Assembly (NCBI GenBank): GCA_046581755.1
Contig: JAYGFR010000026.1
Span: 1 to 16,804, forward strand
Length of the DNA stretch: 16,804 bases
Origin: Nitrospinota bacterium
GTDB taxonomy: Bacteria; UBA8248
Direction: 5' to 3'
The notes beneath the pieces are model-generated. The model saw only the letters and a list, made by a program, of their open reading frames with translations. It was not told the DNA's origin and did not search any database. How positions within the stretch are numbered: position 1 is the first letter of the stretch; each line of letters starts with the position of its first letter. Of the stretch, positions 1 to 16,804 are shown piece by piece. Both the position numbers and the translations under genes were made by a program.

Positions 1-61
1 CGGCCAAAATGCCCAAGGCCGCGGCAAGCACAAATATCCTACGAATCGATTTTCTGTACAT
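1..61 (-). CDS. 5' end of a gene running off the left edge; N-terminus resembles a Sec signal peptide (secreted/periplasmic protein)
   Basis: Minus strand reads GAAGGAG-acctg-ATG TAC AGA AAA... = MYRKSIRRIFVLAAALGILA: basic n-region then hydrophobic h-region, strong Shine-Dalgarno. Too short for the ORF track. Confidence 0.75.
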   Translation of the reverse strand, partial: MYRKSIRRIFVLAAALGILA

Positions 62-72
62 CAGGTCTCCTT

Positions 73-130
73 CAGGACCAAGGATACCTGGCAGGACCAA
101 GGATACCTGGCAGGACCAAGGATACCTGGC
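73..130. repeat. Perfect tandem repeat, 3 x 19 bp (CAGGACCAAGGATACCTGG)
   Basis: Identical units at 73-91, 92-110 and 111-129 plus one extra C; no spacers; abuts the RBS of the minus-strand gene starting at 61. Confidence 0.97.
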
Positions 131-220
131 GTTGTGGGAAGGACGGATTTCCGCACCACTCTGTCCCGTTAGTGAATAAATACCAATTCCGAATCCTACG
201 CACCCGTCTTGGGAGCGAAT

Positions 221-249: not shown

Positions 250-394
250 GGAGTTTGATCGGGCCTAATCCCAACAAAATGAGCCATATTCATGGAACAA
301 CCGGGGACGGAATCTATTCTGTCGCCGGGGGGATATCCTCCTTCGGGCGGATTTCCGCCCCTCCCAATGAGGGAAGGGGGATAAGGTCCGAATT

Positions 395-412
395 AAGGGG
401 GCTATCCCCCTT
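395..412. terminator. Hairpin downstream of the rhodanese gene; possible terminator or mRNA-stabilising stem
   Basis: AAGGGGG-CTAT-CCCCCTT, a 7-bp perfect stem about 30 nt after the TAA at 441; no long U-tract. Confidence 0.35.
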
Positions 413-440
413 GTTGGCAAAAGTGAAAAAATACAACGGT

Positions 441-1280
441 TTATTCGGAATGAACCACGATGGGAACGCCCTCGCGGTTCCCCCATTCGTTCCAAGAACT
501 CATATAATTTCGCACCTTTTCATAGCCGAGAAGCCGGAGGGCCAGATAACCGTGCGCCGCACGGTAGCCGGTCTGTCAGTAGGCCGTAACTTCTTTTTCG
601 GGAGTGACTCCGATGGCCTCGAACAGCTCCCGGAGCTCGGCGGCGGGCTTCATCTCCCCCTCGGGAGTCAGATGTTCAAGCCACTCAAGCCAGACCGCGC
701 CGGGAAGGGCTCCTCCCCGCTTGGCGCGGACATCGGTCCCCAGCCATTCGCCCTCGGTCCGGGTGTCGAGGAAAACATGGTTATCGTCCTCGATGGCGTC
801 GAGAACGTCCTTGTAGGTGGCGAGGCGTTCAAGTTCGAGATTGAAATCGAACGCCACCCCCTGGGGCATCTCCGAGTCCCGGGTGGTCTCGATCCCGGCC
901 CGCTCCCAGGCCCTGTAGCCTCCGTCGAGGATATGAACGTCCTTATGGCCGTACAGTTCGACGAGCCAAAAGCCTCGCACGCAAGTGTTCCCGGTCATGT
1001 CGTCATAAAAGACGATAGTGTTGTCGAACCCCACCCCGCGCTGGCCAAGGAGAAAGGCCCACATCCGGAGGAACGACATCAGCGGGGCCTCGTCCGAATC
1101 GTCGCAGTTGACCCCGTACACATCGTAATGGCGCGCGCCGGGGATATGCCCCATCGTGAAGCGCTCGCCCTTGCGCGTATCGACGATTCGCAGGTTCGGA
1201 TCGCCCATCCGCTCTTTGAGCTGAGCGGGCGTCCATAAAAGGTTTGGGTTTTCGTAGCCTTTCGGGTTCTTGGCGTTCAT
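441..1280 (-). CDS. Tandem-domain rhodanese / sulfurtransferase (TST/MST/SseA-like), selenocysteine at the catalytic position (UGA 576-578), about 279 aa
   Basis: GHIPGA, ILDGG, FLDTR and GALPGA rhodanese motifs. Reading through TGA gives [52 protein letters not shown], restoring the active-site loop and the C-terminal YxxSWxEW signature. RBS GAGGAGG lies 7 nt before ATG 1280. Confidence 0.92.
543..575 (-). promoter_or_regulatory. Candidate bacterial SECIS element
   Basis: Directly 3' of the UGA: CAGA-CCGGCU-ACCGUGC-GGC-GCACGGU-UA-UCUG. Perfect 7-bp upper stem, G-starting apical loop 17 nt after the UGA, and a possible CAGA/UCUG lower stem. Confidence 0.7.
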
Positions 1281-1332: not shown

Positions 1333-2079
1333 TCAGTCCGTCCAAAAGCCGCCGTTTACGTCCAGCGCCTCGCCGTTGATGTGGGCGGCCTCCTCGCTGG
1401 CGAGAAACAGGACCGCCGGCCATACGTCCTCGGGCACGGTGAGCCGGCCCAGCGGATGGGCCTTTTCCGCCTTCGATAGCATATCGGGCGGGGACTCGAA
1501 ATGGAGGCCCGTGTCCGCCGGCCCCGGAAGGACGCAATTAACCGTCACCCCGGTTTTGGCAAGCTCGCGGGCCAGGTTGAAGGTCATCGCGAGAAGGCCC
1601 GCCTTCGCCGCCGAATAGTGGATGTTGGGGCCGATGCCCCCCATCTTCCCGGCGATGGAGGAGAAGCTGATGATGCGGCCCGAGGGGGAGGCCTTGAGTG
1701 CCTCGACAGTCTCCTGGATGGCGAAGTAGGGGGCCAGAAGATTGACCCCGAGCACATCCGACCAGTCCTCCTCGGTCAGGCCCAGCGTCTCCCGGATGGG
1801 CATGTAGCCCGCGACATTTAAAAGAACGTCGCACCCGCCGAGCCATTCGAGGGCGCCGCGCATGGTCTGGCGAATATTCGCCACCTTTGTCAGGTCGCAG
1901 GGCGCCTTTTTGAGCCGGTCCGGCGGCCCCTCCAGGGCGTCCAGGCGCTCTCCGGCGCGGTCGGTGGCGAACACCTTCGCTCCCGAATCGAGAAACCCTT
2001 CGAGAATGCGACTCCCGATGTCCCCGGCGGCCCCGGTGAGAATCACTTTCCGCCCGGCGAATTCGAAACGAATGGGCAT
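1333..2079 (-). CDS. Classical short-chain dehydrogenase/reductase (FabG-like SDR)
   Basis: TGAAGDIG (TGxxxGIG variant), NVAG, catalytic S...YSAAK, C-terminal INGEALDVNGG; RBS AGAGGAG upstream. Confidence 0.93.
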   Translation of the reverse strand: MPIRFEFAGRKVILTGAAGDIGSRILEGFLDSGAKVFATDRAGERLDALEGPPDRLKKAPCDLTKVANIRQTMRGALEWLGGCDVLLNVAGYMPIRETLGLTEEDWSDVLGVNLLAPYFAIQETVEALKASPSGRIISFSSIAGKMGGIGPNIHYSAAKAGLLAMTFNLARELAKTGVTVNCVLPGPADTGLHFESPPDMLSKAEKAHPLGRLTVPEDVWPAVLFLASEEAAHINGEALDVNGGFWTD

Positions 2080-2339: not shown

Positions 2340-4632
2340 ATGTCAGACCTTGCCTATATCGGGAAAAGCGTACCGCGCGTGGACGCGCCGGAAAAAGTGA
2401 CCGGACGCGCCCTCTACACGATGGACCTCCTGCTTCCCCGGATGCTCACCGGAAAGCTCAAGGCCAGCGAATACCCCCATGCGCTGATCAAGAACATCGA
2501 CACAAGCCGGGCCAAGGCGCTTGCGGGCGTCCTGCTCGTTCTCACGGGAGAGGACATCCCCGAGGACGTGAGGTGGGGGGTCGTTCCCTTCCGCTACGAT
2601 CAGATCCCCCTGGCGCGGGGGAAGGTCCGCTTCATCGGCGAGTCCGTGGCGGCCGTCGTGGCGACCCACGAGGACATCGCCAAAGAGGCGCTGGAGCTGA
2701 TCGAGGTGGAATACGAAGACCTCCCCGCGGTGTTCGACGTCTTCGAGGCCATGCAGGAAGGCGCGCCGATCATCCACGAGGACAGGCCCGACAACATCGC
2801 CTTCACCAAGCACATGGAATTCGGCGAGGTGGACAAGGCCTTCGACGAGGCGCACCACGTCAGCGAAACGACCACCTCCTCCTCTCGTCAGGCCCATTGC
2901 GCGTTTGAGACCCACGTCGCCATTTCCGAATGGTCTCCCGGCGGCGACCTGACCGTCTATAATTCGACCCAGTGCCCGAGCCTGAGCCACCAGTATTTCT
3001 CCAAAGTCCTCAAGATTCCCGAATCCAAAATCCGGGTGATTACCAACTACATCGGCGGCGGCTTCGGCGGGAAGGCGACCAGCAAGTTCAATATCGACTT
3101 CCTCTCCATCATCGCCGCCAAAAAAACGGGCCGGCCCGTCAAGTTCTACTACGACCGCGAGGAAGAGTTTGTCCTCGGCACCTTCCGGACCAACCAGTTT
3201 CACACCACCCGGATCGCCACCGACAAGGACGGGATTATCCTCGCCCGCGAGATGCAGATGACCGTGGACAACGGCGCCTATTCCGACTACGGCCCGGTCG
3301 TCGGCGGCATCACCGCCCACATGGGAGGCAGTCTCTACAACTTCAAGGCCTACCGGCATCACGCCAACGTCGTCTACACGAACAACGTTTACGGCGGCGC
3401 GATGCGGGGGGGTGGGCAACGGCGGCTACTCGTTCGGCACCGAGGTGGCGATGGACAACCACGCCCGCGAGATTGGGATGGACTCGGCCGAGTTCCGGCT
3501 GAAGAATTTCGTCAAGAAGGGCGACACCACCATCATCGGCGCGAAAATCACGAGCTGCGGGATGTCCCAGTGCGTCGAGGAGGCGATCAAGCGAGTCCCT
3601 TGGAAAGAGGAGCGCCAGGAGAAAAACGGAGTCCGCACCGGCTACGGCCTGAGCGCATCGGTCCACTTCACCGGCGCCCGAGCGATGGGACCCGAAACGG
3701 CGGGCGCTTTTATCAAGATGAACAAGGACGGCACCGTCCAGGTCCTCTCGGGCACCATCGAGATGGGCAACGGTTCGAACACGACGCTGGCGCAGATTTG
3801 CGCCGAGACCCTGGGCGTGCGGGTGGAGGATGTCCGAATCCTGAACGGCGACACCGCCGTGAACCCCTACGGATGGGGCGTCCGGGGCAGCCGGACCACC
3901 ACCATCGACGGGCAGGCCACCCGCCTCGCCTCGATCGAGGCAAGGGAGATGCTCTTCCGGGGGGCGGCGGAGCTCCTCGAATGCGACCCGAAGGACCTGG
4001 ACGCCCGGATGGGGAAGATATTCGTCCGGAGCGCTCCGGAGAACGCCGTCACCCACTCCGAAGCCTACATGAAAATCTACGACAAGCAGGGGAGCGAGGC
4101 CGTCTACACCACCGCCAGCTACGACTCCCCGAGCGAGGACCCGGACCCGGTGACGGGCTACGGGAACTGGTCGGCGGCCTACGCCTTCGGCGCCAAGGTG
4201 GCCGAGGTCGAGGTGGACACCGAAACCGGCGCCATCGAGGTCAAGCGGATCGTGTGCGCGAACGATGTCGGGACTGTGGTGAACCCAGCCGGCGCAGTGG
4301 GCCAGATCGAGGGCGGGGCGCTCATGGGGCTGGGATTTGCCCTGATTGAGGATTATCAGGTTGAAAACGGCCAGCCCGTGAATCCCAACCTGCTCGAATA
4401 CAAGTTGCCCACCACCCTGGATATTCCCAAGCTGGAGATCATTCTCGTCGAGACGGAAAACCCGACGGGGCCCTATGGCGCCAAAGGTTTGGGCGAGATG
4501 GCCCAGCTGGGCACCTCGGCGGCCATCTCCAACGCGGTCTACGACGCGGTGGGCGTCCGCGTGAAGAGCCTTCCCGTCACGCCGGAGAAGATTCTGGACG
4601 GGCTCCGGGAAAAAGAGGAGAATGGCGGCTGA
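2340..4632 (+). CDS. Xanthine dehydrogenase family molybdopterin-binding (large) subunit, split by a +1 frameshift in the G7 tract at 3406-3412 (reconstructed about 763 aa)
   Basis: ORF 2340.. carries IGKSVPRVDAPEKVTG, RQAH, GGGFGGK and GAMRG. ORF 3412..4632 carries EMGNG, GSRTT, GQIEGG and AKGLGE (catalytic Glu). Removing one G gives continuous AMRGVGNGG, matching the AFRGFG-type Moco loop. Confidence 0.9.
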
Positions 4633-4664
4633 GCGCGTCGGGCTAAAAACAAGAGGGGAGTCTT

Positions 4665-5534
4665 GTGGCATTCGAATACGTTCCGGTGAAAACCGTTGAG
4701 GACGCCCTTGCGGCGATGAAGAAGTGGGGCGATGAGGGCAAAATCTACGCGGGCGGCGTTGCGCTTTCGATTCTGATGAAATCGAATGTGTTTCAGCCCG
4801 GCGCGCTCATCGACATTTCGGGCGTCGAGGAACTCTCCGGCATCGAGGAAACGGGGACGGGCGGCGTCCGCATCGGGGCGAGAACCCCCCACCGGGAGAT
4901 CGAGACCTCGCCCCTCATCGCCGGGCGCTTCCCGCTTCTGGCCGAGGTGTTCCACAACGTGGCCACCATCCGCATCCGCAACGCCGGAACGATAGGCGGG
5001 AACATCATCTTCGCGGAGCCCGCCTCGGACCCTCCCGCGGCGTTGTTGGTGCTGGAAGCCCGGATGATCGCAAGGAACACCGGCGGCGCCGAGCGCGCGA
5101 TTCCGGCCTCGGAGTTCTGGACTGACTATTATGAAACCGCCCTGGAGGAGGATGAGCTTCTCACCGCGATCGAGATCGATCCGCTTCCGGAGGGAATGCG
5201 CACGGCCTATACGCGGTTCACCACCCGCTCGAAAGAAGACAAACCCTTAATCTCGATTTCGGTGGCCGTGGCGGCCGGGGATGACGGCAAGACCTGCCGC
5301 GAGGCCCGGATCGGGCTGGGCGGGGTCGAGGCGGTATTCAGGCGGCTGAGAGCGGCGGAGGAAGCGCTCCAGGGAAAAGAACTCGCCCGGGAGGCTATCG
5401 ACGAGGCCCTTGCCGGCACGCTCGGCGACCTCGAACCGCTCACCGACATCCGGGCCAGCGATTCCTACCGGCGGCAGGTCACGCCCGTCTTCATCCGGCG
5501 GACCATCGAAAAGGCCGCGCGGCTTATCGGCTAA
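4665..5534 (+). CDS. Xanthine dehydrogenase / CoxM family FAD-binding (medium) subunit
   Basis: FEYVPVKTVEDAL, YAGG, IRNAGTIGGN, EPASD, DIRASDSYR; GTG start after GAGGGGAG, 32 nt after the large subunit. Confidence 0.93.
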   Translation: MAFEYVPVKTVEDALAAMKKWGDEGKIYAGGVALSILMKSNVFQPGALIDISGVEELSGIEETGTGGVRIGARTPHREIETSPLIAGRFPLLAEVFHNVATIRIRNAGTIGGNIIFAEPASDPPAALLVLEARMIARNTGGAERAIPASEFWTDYYETALEEDELLTAIEIDPLPEGMRTAYTRFTTRSKEDKPLISISVAVAAGDDGKTCREARIGLGGVEAVFRRLRAAEEALQGKELAREAIDEALAGTLGDLEPLTDIRASDSYRRQVTPVFIRRTIEKAARLIG

Positions 5535-13057: not shown

Positions 13058-16000
13058 TTACCGGAGAGCTTTCAGCGCATCGTTCAGATTGCGCTCCAGT
13101 ATGTTTTTGTATGCTATGAAATGGAAAGTTTTCGCGCCCCGGGGGCAGTTCTTTTTTCTGAAATCCAGCGGAAGGGAAATGTCGGCTATGGGGATGGAAG
13201 CGGCCTTGGGCTGGTTTTTCAGGAAAAGGCGAGCGGTCTCCTCGAATACCTTCACGCCATGCTGGAGGCTGGTGATTCTCTCTCCATTAATTTGAAAGAC
13301 GAGGGCCCGCTTCCCGTCCTTGGTTTTCATCTCGGCGAAAATGACCTGGCCCGGATCGTTCTTCCTGCTTTCGACGGCTTGGAGCAGTTTGTCCGAGTTT
13401 TCGATGATCTCATAGTGGTTCGGATTCGTCTTTCTGGTTTCGACGGTGTAGAACAACAAATTGACGGGAGGCATTTTGGCTTTCACGCGCCATGGCTCGT
13501 TCATGATTCTCTTGGCCACGTTGCTCAGGAATACGCCCAACCTGACTGAGTAGGCCGGCCATGCGTCCTTTCCCATGCTGACATACATGGTTCCGCCCAT
13601 TTCGTCGGAAATGTACACATGGGCCCGGACGCCATCGTTACGCATCATGACCTGGATGGAATTCAATTGGAGTACATCGGCTATGGCTTGCTGGGCGATC
13701 AATTCCGTGGCCGAGGAGGCAACGCCGATTTCGGTGCGGACCAGCCTGCCGCGCTCGCCTTTTTGGAAAAAATTCTCGAACGAGGTGTGGCGGCTGGTTT
13801 GCGCCTCCTTACCGTTCCAAGAGGCTGAAATGAGCCCTTGCTCCCCCTGGAACAGGAATGTCCGCTGAGTCAAGGGAGGAAGGGGCTTGCCGCGGAAGAA
13901 ATTGGCGATCCCCTGAAGCTCGTTTTCGAAGTCCGTGAATATTTTCCTGTTCGTCGCTAGCCCCGTCTTCGCTGTCGGGACATACACCTTCACAGCGACC
14001 TTTTTGCCTTCTTCGGCGGGTGGCAGGCGATCCAGGCAAAATCGCATGGCGGCCATCTTGTCTACATTTTCCGCTGGGCGTTCGGTGTAAACCTCCCCCC
14101 AGGAAGTGCGGTATATGACATCGACCCGGCGGATTCCCTGTCCTTGGCTGGTTTCCCCAAGATTGATGATCACGCACAGCCTTCTGATTTCCGAATCCTT
14201 GATCAAGTCATCGTTGGGCAGGTGCCCGACATTGATGGGCGGAAAGTATTCTCCCAGCGAATCCAGTATGTCCTGCAGGTTGGCGGCGGTCAGGCGCGAC
14301 TCGCGCGATTGCAGGTTGACCTGGGTCCGTTGGTCCCACACCCCGTTCGCAACTAGCCAGATGAGAAGGTCCGGCAGGTTTCTGGTCTGGCGGAGGAGAT
14401 TTGGTTCGATTTTATCGCTTTTGAGATCCGCCGCGGAAACCGGACCGCGGTAGACCTTCCACAAGTTTTCGCCGCCGGTCCGGGAGGGGGTCATCGTAAA
14501 AGTGATTTGATCCTGGTGAAGGCTGTCCTCGAAGGTTTTGGGAAGGTATTCGACCTTTTTTTCTTTCTTCGAATAGAATGTGAAAAGTTTCCGGCCCAGG
14601 ACGGTGAGGTCGGTTGCGTTGATCATGGCGTTGGAGGTGGCGCCGGTCTGAGAGAGGCGTTTGTAGGATTCGATGATAAATTTATTGACCTCGTTGCCCA
14701 GCTTGACGCTTTGATCGAACGGCCATTCCTTGAAATTGTTCAGCTTGAGAATGTAGTCGTTATCCCAGTTCCAACCCTCGATGAGCTCGCCGAGCATGTC
14801 TTTTTTCCGGTTCCGGCTCCGCATGGGGTCGTTGATTCCCGTAATCGTGTCGCCAGCCTTGAGGTAGAAGCACTGCCTCAAGATCTCCAAGAGATCGCTC
14901 CGATCCATGCGCTTGTAGTATTCCAGGATGCGGTTGAACATGAGGAGATAGCCGTCGAGATCGAACCGGTTGGGGTGCTCATCGATTTGCTGGCCGTGGC
15001 CGAGAGAGTCGAATTCGTCTCTCTCTTTTTCTTTCCTGGAAGCAAGGTTGGTGATATTTTCCTTCAAAACGTCGCAAAGAAGGGTGTTGGCCGATTCGGG
15101 GTCCATGTAGTCTTCGATAAGTCCCATTTTCATCGCCGATTTGAAAGGGCTTCCGAGCGCCTTATTGAGTTGCCATAGAGCGGCGCCGAACCCCTCCTCC
15201 ATGGAGATGTGCTGGGCGTTGCCGAGATCGATGTAGGATTTCGAATTGATGATGAAATGGTCGAAGGCGAGTTGAGAGACGCGTTCGTATTCTTCGTCGG
15301 TGATATGCGGCGGCAATGCGGTCCAGAGGGGTGGGGCGCCAGCCAGTACGGTATGCGTCCGGAAAAATTCTTCCTTGAGAAGCTTACCCAGGGCGGACCC
15401 GGCGCTTTCCTCGTCGGACTCGCCGAATTTGTTGTTTCGCGCCTCACTGATATCGGTGATGAAAAAATGACATTCGAAACGGTTGATCTTTTCCGTCCAC
15501 TCCTCGATTTTCCCTAGCTTGAATGCAAGCCCTTTGAGCTTCTCCGAGGTGAAGTCCGATTTATTGACGCAAACCCAGATATCGAAGTCGCTCTTGGAGG
15601 TTTGGGCGATGGTCGCCAGGCTTCCCATGGCGGACAGCGAGTAGATGGGGCATGAGCCTGTGCGATTCCTGAAATCAGCCTGCGTGACATTCGCGGTGGG
15701 AATCTGCATTTCGATTCGCCTGGGGATGTCGCCATCGTGCTTGAAATCGAGGACTCCGTCCGGAACCATTTCCGGGTCGTCCACATAGCCCGGGATGCCG
15801 GGCAGGTTGAGGTGTACCAGGGAGGGGAGGATGGTGAAAATTTGCTTATCCAGATCGTTCAGCTTGGAAAGGATCGTGACGATTTTCCGCTGGTTGTATT
15901 CGACATATGCGCGCGCGCGGATGGATATCCCGGTGATCACTTTCTGATCGGCCGAATCGAAGTCAGGGGTCGCGGAGAAGGAATCACTGGACGAACCGAG

Positions 16001-16063
16001 GATATCGTCGCCAGCGTCCCACTCGTCTGTATCTTTTTTTCCGAAAAATTTCTTCAGCGCCAT
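13058..16063 (-). CDS. cyaA: Class I adenylate cyclase (1001 aa)
   Basis: MGSLATIAQTSKSDFDIWVC (GS...SDxDIWVC nucleotidyltransferase motif), LLKEEFFRT, YIDLG and ALWQLNKALGSPFKSAMK correspond to the conserved blocks of E. coli-type CyaA. Confidence 0.93.
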   Translation of the reverse strand: MALKKFFGKKDTDEWDAGDDILGSSSDSFSATPDFDSADQKVITGISIRARAYVEYNQRKIVTILSKLNDLDKQIFTILPSLVHLNLPGIPGYVDDPEMVPDGVLDFKHDGDIPRRIEMQIPTANVTQADFRNRTGSCPIYSLSAMGSLATIAQTSKSDFDIWVCVNKSDFTSEKLKGLAFKLGKIEEWTEKINRFECHFFITDISEARNNKFGESDEESAGSALGKLLKEEFFRTHTVLAGAPPLWTALPPHITDEEYERVSQLAFDHFIINSKSYIDLGNAQHISMEEGFGAALWQLNKALGSPFKSAMKMGLIEDYMDPESANTLLCDVLKENITNLASRKEKERDEFDSLGHGQQIDEHPNRFDLDGYLLMFNRILEYYKRMDRSDLLEILRQCFYLKAGDTITGINDPMRSRNRKKDMLGELIEGWNWDNDYILKLNNFKEWPFDQSVKLGNEVNKFIIESYKRLSQTGATSNAMINATDLTVLGRKLFTFYSKKEKKVEYLPKTFEDSLHQDQITFTMTPSRTGGENLWKVYRGPVSAADLKSDKIEPNLLRQTRNLPDLLIWLVANGVWDQRTQVNLQSRESRLTAANLQDILDSLGEYFPPINVGHLPNDDLIKDSEIRRLCVIINLGETSQGQGIRRVDVIYRTSWGEVYTERPAENVDKMAAMRFCLDRLPPAEEGKKVAVKVYVPTAKTGLATNRKIFTDFENELQGIANFFRGKPLPPLTQRTFLFQGEQGLISASWNGKEAQTSRHTSFENFFQKGERGRLVRTEIGVASSATELIAQQAIADVLQLNSIQVMMRNDGVRAHVYISDEMGGTMYVSMGKDAWPAYSVRLGVFLSNVAKRIMNEPWRVKAKMPPVNLLFYTVETRKTNPNHYEIIENSDKLLQAVESRKNDPGQVIFAEMKTKDGKRALVFQINGERITSLQHGVKVFEETARLFLKNQPKAASIPIADISLPLDFRKKNCPRGAKTFHFIAYKNILERNLNDALKALR

Positions 16064-16107: not shown

Positions 16108-16804
16108 CTAGAACTGGTAGGTTTCTCCTTGAACGAATATTTTAAGCCTTGGTTCATTCAACGCTTCGAGATCCTTCAAAAGTTCCTTGTGGTAGCGAAT
16201 TTTTTCATGAAAGAGATAGATGGGAACGTCGGGCGGCATTTTTTTTGTTTCCTCGTACAAAGATTTCGGCGTGAAATGCTTGGCCAACTCAGCAATGTTT
16301 TGCATGAAATTCGGAAACGCCAACTCTGTAATGATCGCCCGGAGGTCGTCGAGTTCGCGGGCTTTTTCCCAAATTGTATGGGTGGGACCCGTATCGCCCG
16401 AATAAAGAACCGATCCCGTTTCGTCTCTTATTATATATCCCACAGCATTGACCGAATGATCTACCCGGTATGCCGTGAATGACAATCCGGCGATGGTTTT
16501 CTCCTCGCCCTCTTCGATATCGATAAATTCGAGAATCGGGTTGTCCCCGGCCGCGAGGACCGTGAAGTCGGGCCATATGATGTTGTTGAACATATATTTG
16601 TGAAGATCACTTAATACAGATTCGAGACTTACGATGGGGAGGGAGGCCTCCTTCGCTCCGAAAATATTGTCGGCGATGAAGGGGATCTCTCCCACGTGGT
16701 CGAGGTGGGTGTGGGTGATGAGAATTCCCTCGAGCCGGATCTGCTCTTCCACCGAAAGTGTCGAGGCTGCACTCCCCGCATCGAGCAAGAGGCATTCATT
16801 GACC
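16108..16804 (-). CDS. Metallo-beta-lactamase-fold 3',5'-cyclic-nucleotide phosphodiesterase (class II-like), 5'-partial
   Basis: LLDAG, ITHTHLDH (HxHxDH), FNNIIWPDF, VDHSV, YSGDTGP, KHFTP, LFH. The frame stays open to the window edge (VNECLLLDAG), so the true start is outside the window. Confidence 0.82.
   Translation of the reverse strand, partial: VNECLLLDAGSAASTLSVEEQIRLEGILITHTHLDHVGEIPFIADNIFGAKEASLPIVSLESVLSDLHKYMFNNIIWPDFTVLAAGDNPILEFIDIEEGEEKTIAGLSFTAYRVDHSVNAVGYIIRDETGSVLYSGDTGPTHTIWEKARELDDLRAIITELAFPNFMQNIAELAKHFTPKSLYEETKKMPPDVPIYLFHEKIRYHKELLKDLEALNEPRLKIFVQGETYQF

What the first reader, a model, noticed from the sequence alone, without database searches (positions are those of the whole stretch)
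441..1280. Hidden selenoprotein: rhodanese with UGA exactly at the catalytic cysteine
Seen: the ORF stops at EKEVTAY-TGA, but the same frame continues for 44 sense codons ([32 protein letters not shown]...) to TAA at 441. Established: in tandem rhodaneses the catalytic Cys follows this beta-strand and opens a six-residue loop (bovine TST CRKGVT, MST CGSGVT, E. coli YnjE CGTGWR), and the C-terminus carries YxGSWxEW. Here the loop is U-Q-T-G-Y-R. Inference: UGA is decoded as Sec, giving a selenocysteine sulfurtransferase that standard pipelines would call truncated. Sec-containing rhodanese-like proteins have been predicted before, so the class is not new, but their function is poorly understood.
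Basis: partly seen in the sequence, partly recalled or inferred. Interest (0 to 1): 0.85.

Follow-up and report, generated by a model that had tools for sequence, protein, structure and literature searches.

The report
Selenocysteine rhodanese, known predicted family
The apparent stop codon inside this marine bacterium's sulfur-transfer enzyme gene sits exactly on the catalytic site, is conserved in related genomes and is very likely read as selenocysteine; this kind of selenoprotein has been predicted since 2005, so the find is real but ordinary.

Summary
Observation confirmed. Window 1280-441 (-) is a 279-residue tandem rhodanese. Its codon 235 is TGA and aligns with catalytic Cys230 of Azotobacter RhdA. 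The genome has selA, selB, selD and tRNA-Sec. Of the 30 best relative loci, 27 have TGA and 3 have TGC at this column. The tail stays under purifying selection. A 7-bp hairpin 17 nt after UGA fits the bacterial SECIS model and has almost no synonymous change. Independent contigs keep the TGA. Public proteins stop at residue 234. Sec forms make one clade nested in Cys forms. Sec-containing COG2897-type sulfurtransferases were predicted in 2005 and are still listed as predicted in 2026. The lineage is already known to be selenoprotein-rich, and this scan has noted the family on other DNA (66 notes matched the words). What is added: an operon with an SDR and a sulfonate/taurine-type ABC transporter, which suggests organosulfur catabolism; two amino-acid changes that build the SECIS; and a second rhodanese paralog with Sec in one genus. 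New member of a known kind.

The parts
441..1280 (-). Tandem-domain rhodanese (sulfurtransferase) CDS, 279 aa when TGA is read as Sec
   Evidence: two PF00581 domains; orthologs 65-82% identical
576..578 (-). In-frame TGA, codon 235, at the catalytic Cys position (predicted Sec; loop U-Q-T-G-Y-R)
549..565 (-). Predicted bacterial SECIS upper hairpin: 7-bp stem, 3-nt loop GGC starting 17 nt after UGA; a variable lower stem pairs 571-568 with 545-542
   Evidence: model constraints from PMC13188914
1288..1294 (-). Shine-Dalgarno-like GAGGAGG, 7 nt before the ATG
   Evidence: sequence
1333..2079 (-). SDR-family oxidoreductase (248 aa, FabG-like but below cut-offs), directly upstream and probably co-transcribed; it ends in an ordinary TGA stop
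   Evidence: upstream of the rhodanese in 27 of 27 Sec loci and 2 of 3 Cys loci
1..61 (-). Start of the next gene (signal-peptide-like); likely the N-terminus of the SsuA/TauA-type substrate-binding protein whose remainder begins contig C243
   Evidence: inference (binding protein follows the rhodanese in 20 of 26 other Sec loci; G000 ortholog at C243:119-892)
2340..4632 (+). Divergent xanthine-oxidase-family molybdopterin large subunit; the apparent frameshift in the G7 run 3406-3412 is an assembly error
   Evidence: all 4 runs laid lack one G at 3406
4665..5534 (+). FAD subunit of the same molybdenum hydroxylase

Best explanation
The gene encodes a two-domain RhdA-like rhodanese whose catalytic-site codon is UGA, likely read as selenocysteine, and the enzyme is predicted to move sulfane sulfur through a selenium-sulfur intermediate. 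Shown: UGA lies on the catalytic column, the Sec machinery is in the genome, the tail is conserved, and a conserved hairpin lies 17 nt downstream. Inferred from established SelB/SECIS recoding (about 0.95): SelB binds the hairpin and delivers Sec-tRNA, giving a 279-aa protein. Inferred from the ping-pong mechanism of rhodaneses (about 0.75): the Sec235 selenolate, held in the U-Q-T-G-Y-R loop, takes a sulfane sulfur from a donor such as thiosulfate or a small persulfide, forms E-Se-S-, and hands it to a thiol, thioredoxin or sulfite. No resolving Cys is conserved. Inferred from gene context (about 0.5): it handles sulfur released from an imported organosulfur compound, working with the upstream SDR and the downstream sulfonate/taurine-type ABC transporter. 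Sec arose once from Cys in this bacterial family.
For: Catalytic column; 94 of the 95 listed database homologs that do not stop at column 234 have Cys there, 1 is a gap. Machinery: selA, selB and selD over their cut-offs, tRNA-Sec with TCA anticodon, and selD itself with a TGA. TGA in 27 of 30 loci, TGC in 3. Tail pN/pS 0.18. The SECIS model is met in 25 of 27 Sec loci and 0 of 3 Cys loci, against 52 of 570 TGA ends of long ORFs and 59 of 800 Cys codons. pS over codons +3..+9 is 0.04, while the lowest of 72 other 7-codon windows is 0.24 (9 spread loci). Codons +6 and +9 are Ala/Gly in all 27 Sec loci and Ser/Ala in all 3 Cys loci; both changes create stem pairs, and none of the 94 Cys proteins has both. 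Sec clade SH-aLRT 99, nested in Cys forms, on a tree that leaves out the Sec codon and everything after it. Context. Four Cys relatives carry an N-terminal domain resembling thiol dioxygenases (one tested: Atlas score 0.96, weak PDB hit to mercaptosuccinate dioxygenase E 0.039).
Against: No protein-level proof of Sec and no activity data. The hairpin alone is not unusually stable against shuffles (z 0.2-0.9). It shows no compensatory base changes, and 2 of 27 Sec loci have a mismatch that fails the model. selB was not found in 3 of the 27 Sec genomes (drafts 67-91% complete). The 27 genomes are kin (17 from one genus), so they are not independent. The protein is below every NCBIfam cut-off (sseA 121 of 250 bits) and fits neither the TST nor the MST loop motif, so the donor is unknown. 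The transporter and SDR are also below their family cut-offs. No structure model was obtained.
Confidence: 0.85

Rival explanations
1. It is a selenoprotein, but it acts mainly as a redox or radical scavenger (RhdA-like glutathione-thiyl handling) rather than as a pathway sulfur carrier.
For: The closest solved protein is A. vinelandii RhdA, with the same C-Q-T-x-x-R loop. RhdA scavenges GS radicals through Cys230 (PMC3458005, passages). The genome carries many thiol-redox-type TGA candidates.
Against: It has a fixed place between an SDR and an ABC transporter in most loci. Identity to RhdA is modest, and loop positions 4-5 differ.
Confidence: 0.25
2. It supplies the terminal S or Se ligand to the divergently encoded xanthine-oxidase-family molybdenum enzyme.
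For: The Mo large subunit lies within 1.5 kb in 19 of 27 Sec loci and beside the Cys form of G006. The genome has yqeB and yqeC. A rhodanese role in cofactor synthesis for a molybdopterin enzyme was suggested in V. paradoxus (PMC5373536, passages).
Against: The Mo genes are on the other strand and are absent from the locus in 3 Sec-form long loci (L039, L046, L047) where SDR and rhodanese stay together. The large subunit scores far below the Se-dependent XDH cut-off (373 of 830 bits). Other Mo hydroxylases lie elsewhere in the genome.
Confidence: 0.1
3. The TGA is a nonsense mutation or an assembly error, or the 234-aa product is the functional form.
For: Databases hold the 234-aa form (25 of 120 listed homologs). 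This assembly does contain errors (extra G at 3406). The genome has two Cys paralogs that could cover the function.
Against: The TGA is shared by 26 other genomes, with a conserved tail and frozen synonymous sites. Independent contigs agree. The truncated product would lack the whole active-site loop.
Confidence: 0.02
4. UGA is read as another residue (genome-wide Trp or Gly recoding, or Cys insertion).
Against: TGA is the commonest end of long ORFs (194 of 424; 570 of 1469). The neighbouring SDR ends in TGA at its family length. The only TCA-anticodon tRNA found is tRNA-Sec. The column is Cys, never Trp or Gly, in homologs.
Confidence: 0.02

Closest known systems
Predicted selenoprotein family 'rhodanese-related sulfurtransferase', COG2897/SseA (Zhang, Fomenko and Gladyshev 2005, PMC1088965; author names come from an earlier scan note; also PMC1976440 and PMC9312934; 'rhodanese-like form 4, UxxG' in PMC13188914)
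   Same: Rhodanese with Sec in place of Cys, widespread Cys homologs, bacterial SECIS; the motif here is U-Q-T-G, which is UxxG.
   Different: Here the Sec forms are one clade confined to one bacterial family and nested among Cys proteins, so probably a separate gain. The reference sequences (MCY3690685.1, MQG53192.1) could not be compared. The operon context is not described in the passages read.
Azotobacter vinelandii RhdA (PDB 1e0c)
   Same: Best solved match (E 1e-40); tandem domains; loop C-Q-T-x-x-R with Thr and Arg kept.
   Different: Cys rather than Sec; loop H-H-R against G-Y-R; C-terminal signature YAGSWGEW against YMSSWNEW.
Bovine TST and 3-mercaptopyruvate sulfurtransferases (E. 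coli SseA, NCBIfam PRK11493)
   Same: Same fold family and catalytic position (E 1e-27 to 1e-31).
   Different: Neither CRxGx(R/T) nor CG(S/T)GVT is present; 121 of 250 bits on PRK11493.
NCBIfam rhodanese selenoprotein models NF041203 (LYCAU, CxU), NF045694 (TsoB) and NF040901 (ExtH)
   Same: Weak rhodanese-domain similarity only.
   Different: Scores of 34/115, 22/805 and 32/200 bits; different motifs and architectures.

Membership tests
Bacterial selenoprotein | In-frame UGA aligned to a conserved Cys, with conservation on both sides | tested here: met
Bacterial selenoprotein | selA, selB, selC and selD in the genome | tested here: met
Bacterial selenoprotein | bSECIS model: loop 3-9 nt, stem 4-16 bp, G in the first two loop positions, 16-37 nt spacing, at most -7.5 kcal/mol | tested here: met
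   loop 3, stem 7, spacing 17, -9.7 kcal/mol; 25 of 27 Sec loci, 0 of 3 Cys loci (own implementation without bulges; constraints)
Bacterial selenoprotein | Covariation supporting the SECIS stem | tested here: inconclusive
   stem nearly invariant, no compensatory pairs, 2 loci with a mismatch
Bacterial selenoprotein | Sec physically present in the protein | not testable with these tools
   needs MS or 75Se labelling
Sec rhodanese-related sulfurtransferase (COG2897, form 4) | Tandem rhodanese (PF00581 twice, SseA-like) architecture | tested here: met
   two PF00581 stretches; best NCBIfam hit sseA/PRK11493, though below cut-off. No COG library was available.
Sec rhodanese-related sulfurtransferase (COG2897, form 4) | UxxG motif at the catalytic site | tested here: met
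   U-Q-T-G in 27 of 27; motif from Table 1 of PMC13188914
Sec rhodanese-related sulfurtransferase (COG2897, form 4) | Orthology to the published representative sequences | not testable with these tools
   accessions not retrieved; no supplement readable
TST (classical rhodanese) | Loop CRxGx(R/T) | tested here: not met
   loop UQTGYR has Q at position 2; motif from PMC6856128
MST (3-mercaptopyruvate sulfurtransferase) | Loop CG(S/T)GVT and the PRK11493 cut-off | tested here: not met
RhdA-like tandem rhodanese | C-Q-T-x-x-R loop and RhdA as nearest solved structure | tested here: met
Curated rhodanese selenoprotein models (LYCAU, TsoB) and ExtH | Model cut-off scores | tested here: not met

The most novel reading that the evidence does not exclude
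This is a lineage-specific, independent Cys-to-Sec conversion of an RhdA-like sulfurtransferase inside an organosulfur-catabolic operon (SDR, sulfonate/taurine-type ABC transporter, divergent Mo hydroxylase). Two active-site-helix substitutions paid for its SECIS, and a second conversion happened in another rhodanese paralog of one genus. In the boldest form, the enzyme uses Sec to load S or Se onto the neighbouring molybdenum hydroxylase, linking the Sec trait to the Se-cofactor trait.
Probability: 0.12. Interest if true: 0.6.

Novelty: new member of a known kind. Interest (0 to 1): 0.27.

Why it matters
It corrects a systematic mis-annotation: 25 of the 120 listed homolog clusters end at residue 234 and so lack their active site. 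No Sec rhodanese is in the experimentally verified list of the 2026 review, and a phrase search found no characterisation. This clade offers a natural Sec/Cys pair at about 67% identity, with a compact canonical SECIS and a conserved operon, for testing what selenium does to sulfane-sulfur transfer. As a discovery it is modest, because both the family and the selenoprotein richness of the lineage are in print.

Tried and rejected
No structure model was obtained, so distances from Sec235 to Cys59 and Cys100 are unknown. A resolving-Cys mechanism was set aside because Cys59 is present in only 15 of 25 and Cys100 in only 13 of 25 Sec-clade proteins. Folding energy against shuffles did not single out the SECIS. 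The promoter/terminator scan gave nothing above chance near the gene. The search for related loci in genome contigs found only 2 loci, both duplicates of L011 and L017, and they were dropped from all counts. The first two neighbour-gene callers picked antisense frames and were replaced. One reference (second paralog) was out of frame, so that row is void. Run X3 had only a short piece near the TGA and no cover at most of the gene. The genome-wide TGA candidate list (205 of 43,022) was read by eye and not scanned against families, so no selenoproteome count is claimed. Genome-wide TGA reassignment was rejected. Supplements of PMC13188914 were not readable, and BSepDB entries were not seen; this protein may already be listed there.

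Full report
Observation. The minus strand carries an ORF from ATG 1280, behind a GAGGAGG site, to TGA at 578-576. The frame goes on for 44 sense codons to TAA at 443-441. Read through, it gives 279 residues with U at 235 and two PF00581 domains. The best solved match is A. vinelandii RhdA (1e0c, E 1e-40), whose HCQTHHR loop aligns with YUQTGYR.

Machinery. The genome (4.2 Mb, 96.5% complete) has selA, selB and selD over their curated cut-offs and a tRNA-Sec with a TCA anticodon; selD itself has an in-frame TGA. TGA is an ordinary stop here: it ends 194 of 424 six-frame ORFs of at least 600 codons (unfiltered) and 570 of 1469 filtered long ORFs. A crude scan listed 205 read-through candidates, and several show CxxU or UxxC-type contexts with nearby hairpins (read by eye only).

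Conservation. Of 61 genomes searched, the 30 best loci were fetched. 27 (own genome included; 4 genera, 17 from one genus) have TGA at this column and 3 (three other genera of the same family) have TGC. The three Cys-form genomes also have selA and selB. selB was found in 24 of the 27 Sec genomes; the 3 misses are drafts 67-91% complete. Among the 120 listed of 1409 database homologs, 25 end exactly at column 234, 94 have Cys there and 1 is a fragment. The read-through sequence is not in the collection. Pairwise pN/pS is 0.24 upstream and 0.18 for codons +11 to +36. Contigs from two DNA runs (X2, X10) and one RNA run (X15), of different studies, cover 576-578 without change; the fourth run barely covers the gene. 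Holders laid are seawater and vent metagenomes. Named relatives are Nitrospinota and Ca. Tectomicrobia MAGs. I take this to be the GTDB UBA8248 group (recalled, not from a call), three genomes of which are among the ten most selenoprotein-rich in BSepDB (PMC13326102, one passage).

SECIS. A 7-bp stem with a GGC loop begins 17 nt after UGA (565-549). It meets the consensus constraints quoted in PMC13188914 (passage). My bulge-free version of the model passes 25 of 27 Sec loci and 0 of 3 Cys loci, against 52 of 570 TGA stops and 59 of 800 Cys codons. Synonymous change is nearly frozen there: pS 0.04-0.05 over codons +3 to +9, against 0.5-0.6 in the flanks and a minimum of 0.24 in 72 other windows. 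The Sec clade reads RAAHG where Cys forms mostly read RSAHA. Both changes supply stem pairs, and none of the 94 Cys proteins has both. Against this: the hairpin is no more stable than shuffles, there are no compensatory changes, and two loci have a stem mismatch.

Origin. On the part upstream of the codon, all Sec and truncated rows form one group nested among Cys proteins, both in a 149-row FastTree and in a 65-row IQ-TREE subset (SH-aLRT 99, quick search, rooted on four distant Cys homologs; 84 database rows left out). One Cys-to-Sec gain within this family is the simplest reading. No AU test was run.

Context. An SDR lies directly upstream in 27 of 27 Sec loci and 2 of 3 Cys loci. An SsuA/TauA-like binding protein follows in 20 of the 26 other Sec loci, and a cupin on the other strand in the remaining 6. 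An ATPase and two permeases complete the transporter in several loci; all hits checked in NCBIfam are below family cut-offs. A divergent xanthine-oxidase-family Mo enzyme lies within 1.5 kb in 19 of 27 Sec loci but is missing from three long loci that keep the flanking block. Four 434-aa Cys relatives carry an extra N-terminal domain; the one tested resembles thiol dioxygenases (Pfam gave only a weak cupin-like hit). Mercaptosuccinate dioxygenase genes cluster with rhodanese genes in two bacteria (PMC5373536, passages). yqeB and yqeC are in the genome.

Mechanism. Shown: codon position, machinery, tail selection, conserved hairpin, operon order. Inferred: SelB-dependent Sec insertion (about 0.95). 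Inferred: double-displacement sulfur transfer as described for TST (PMC9369223, passages), here through a selenyl-sulfide (about 0.75). Inferred: a role in organosulfur catabolism (about 0.5). The loop fits neither the TST nor the MST motif (PMC6856128, passages). RhdA, the nearest structure, also scavenges glutathione thiyl radicals (PMC3458005, passages), which is the main rival.

What is known. A COG2897 rhodanese-related sulfurtransferase selenoprotein family was reported from the Sargasso Sea in 2005 (3 sequences; PMC1088965, passages), in Olavius symbionts (PMC1976440, passages) and in the 2022 review (PMC9312934, passages). The 2026 review lists it as form 4, motif UxxG, under 'predicted' (PMC13188914, passages and section 7 part 1 of 3). 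PMC2398784 was seen only as a listing. Searches showed no experimental study of a Sec rhodanese; the library lacks most subscription journals. This scan has noted near-identical genes in two other genomes, and 66 notes match the family's words.

Verdict. This is a real, well-supported predicted selenoprotein and a new member of a known kind. The added value is the operon context, the SECIS-linked substitutions and the parallel gain in a paralog. Interest 0.27.

Noticed in passing
L052-L055 (G025, G033, G011, G028); G000 C31:2337-3152 (L059): A second tandem rhodanese (about 30% identical, loop C/U-R-L-S-H-R) has TGA at the catalytic codon in genus g8. One search lists 11 such matches; 4 were examined and all 4 have TGA, with the same downstream hairpin sequence (GUC loop 19 nt after UGA in the predicted fold of 3 of 4). 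The matching gene in G000 has TGC. Likely a second, separate Cys-to-Sec gain; its motif is UxxS.
   Followed up: partly
window 3406-3412: The frameshift in the Mo-hydroxylase large subunit is an assembly error: one extra G in a G run, absent from all 4 runs laid, and relatives are in frame.
   Followed up: yes
window 2340-5534: Mo large subunit plus FAD subunit with no adjacent 2Fe-2S small subunit gene called, here or in the relatives examined; best but sub-threshold match is 4-hydroxybenzoyl-CoA reductase alpha.
   Followed up: partly
P0032, P0039, P0043, P0046: Cys relatives of 434 aa with an N-terminal domain of about 160 aa; in P0039 it resembles cysteine/mercaptosuccinate dioxygenases.
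   Followed up: partly
G000 C86:44735-48938; C43:4321-4959: yqeB and two yqeC-like genes over their cut-offs, so the genome likely also has the Se-cofactor trait.
   Followed up: no
G000, many contigs (for example C231, C42, C213, C247, C290, C387, C245, C299): Many further TGA read-through candidates in AhpD-like CxxU, deiodinase-like, DsbA-like and peroxiredoxin-like contexts (family names recalled from motifs, not scanned).
   Followed up: no
window 63-131: Short tandem repeat upstream of the next gene: about three and a half copies of an 18-nt unit (CCAGGTATCCTTGGTCCT-like on the minus strand), seen.
   Followed up: no
window 360-420: Inverted-repeat-like stretch just after the rhodanese stop (GGGGGATA...TATCCCCC); not picked up by the terminator scan.
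   Followed up: no
window 13058-16063: 1001-aa class I adenylate cyclase next to a metallo-beta-lactamase-fold protein with a class II cAMP phosphodiesterase hit (16108-16788).
   Followed up: no
P0001 residue 197: Trp in 25 of 25 truncated (Sec-clade) proteins against His in 91 of 95 others, the sharpest clade-specific change upstream of the Sec; relation to the active site unknown.
   Followed up: no
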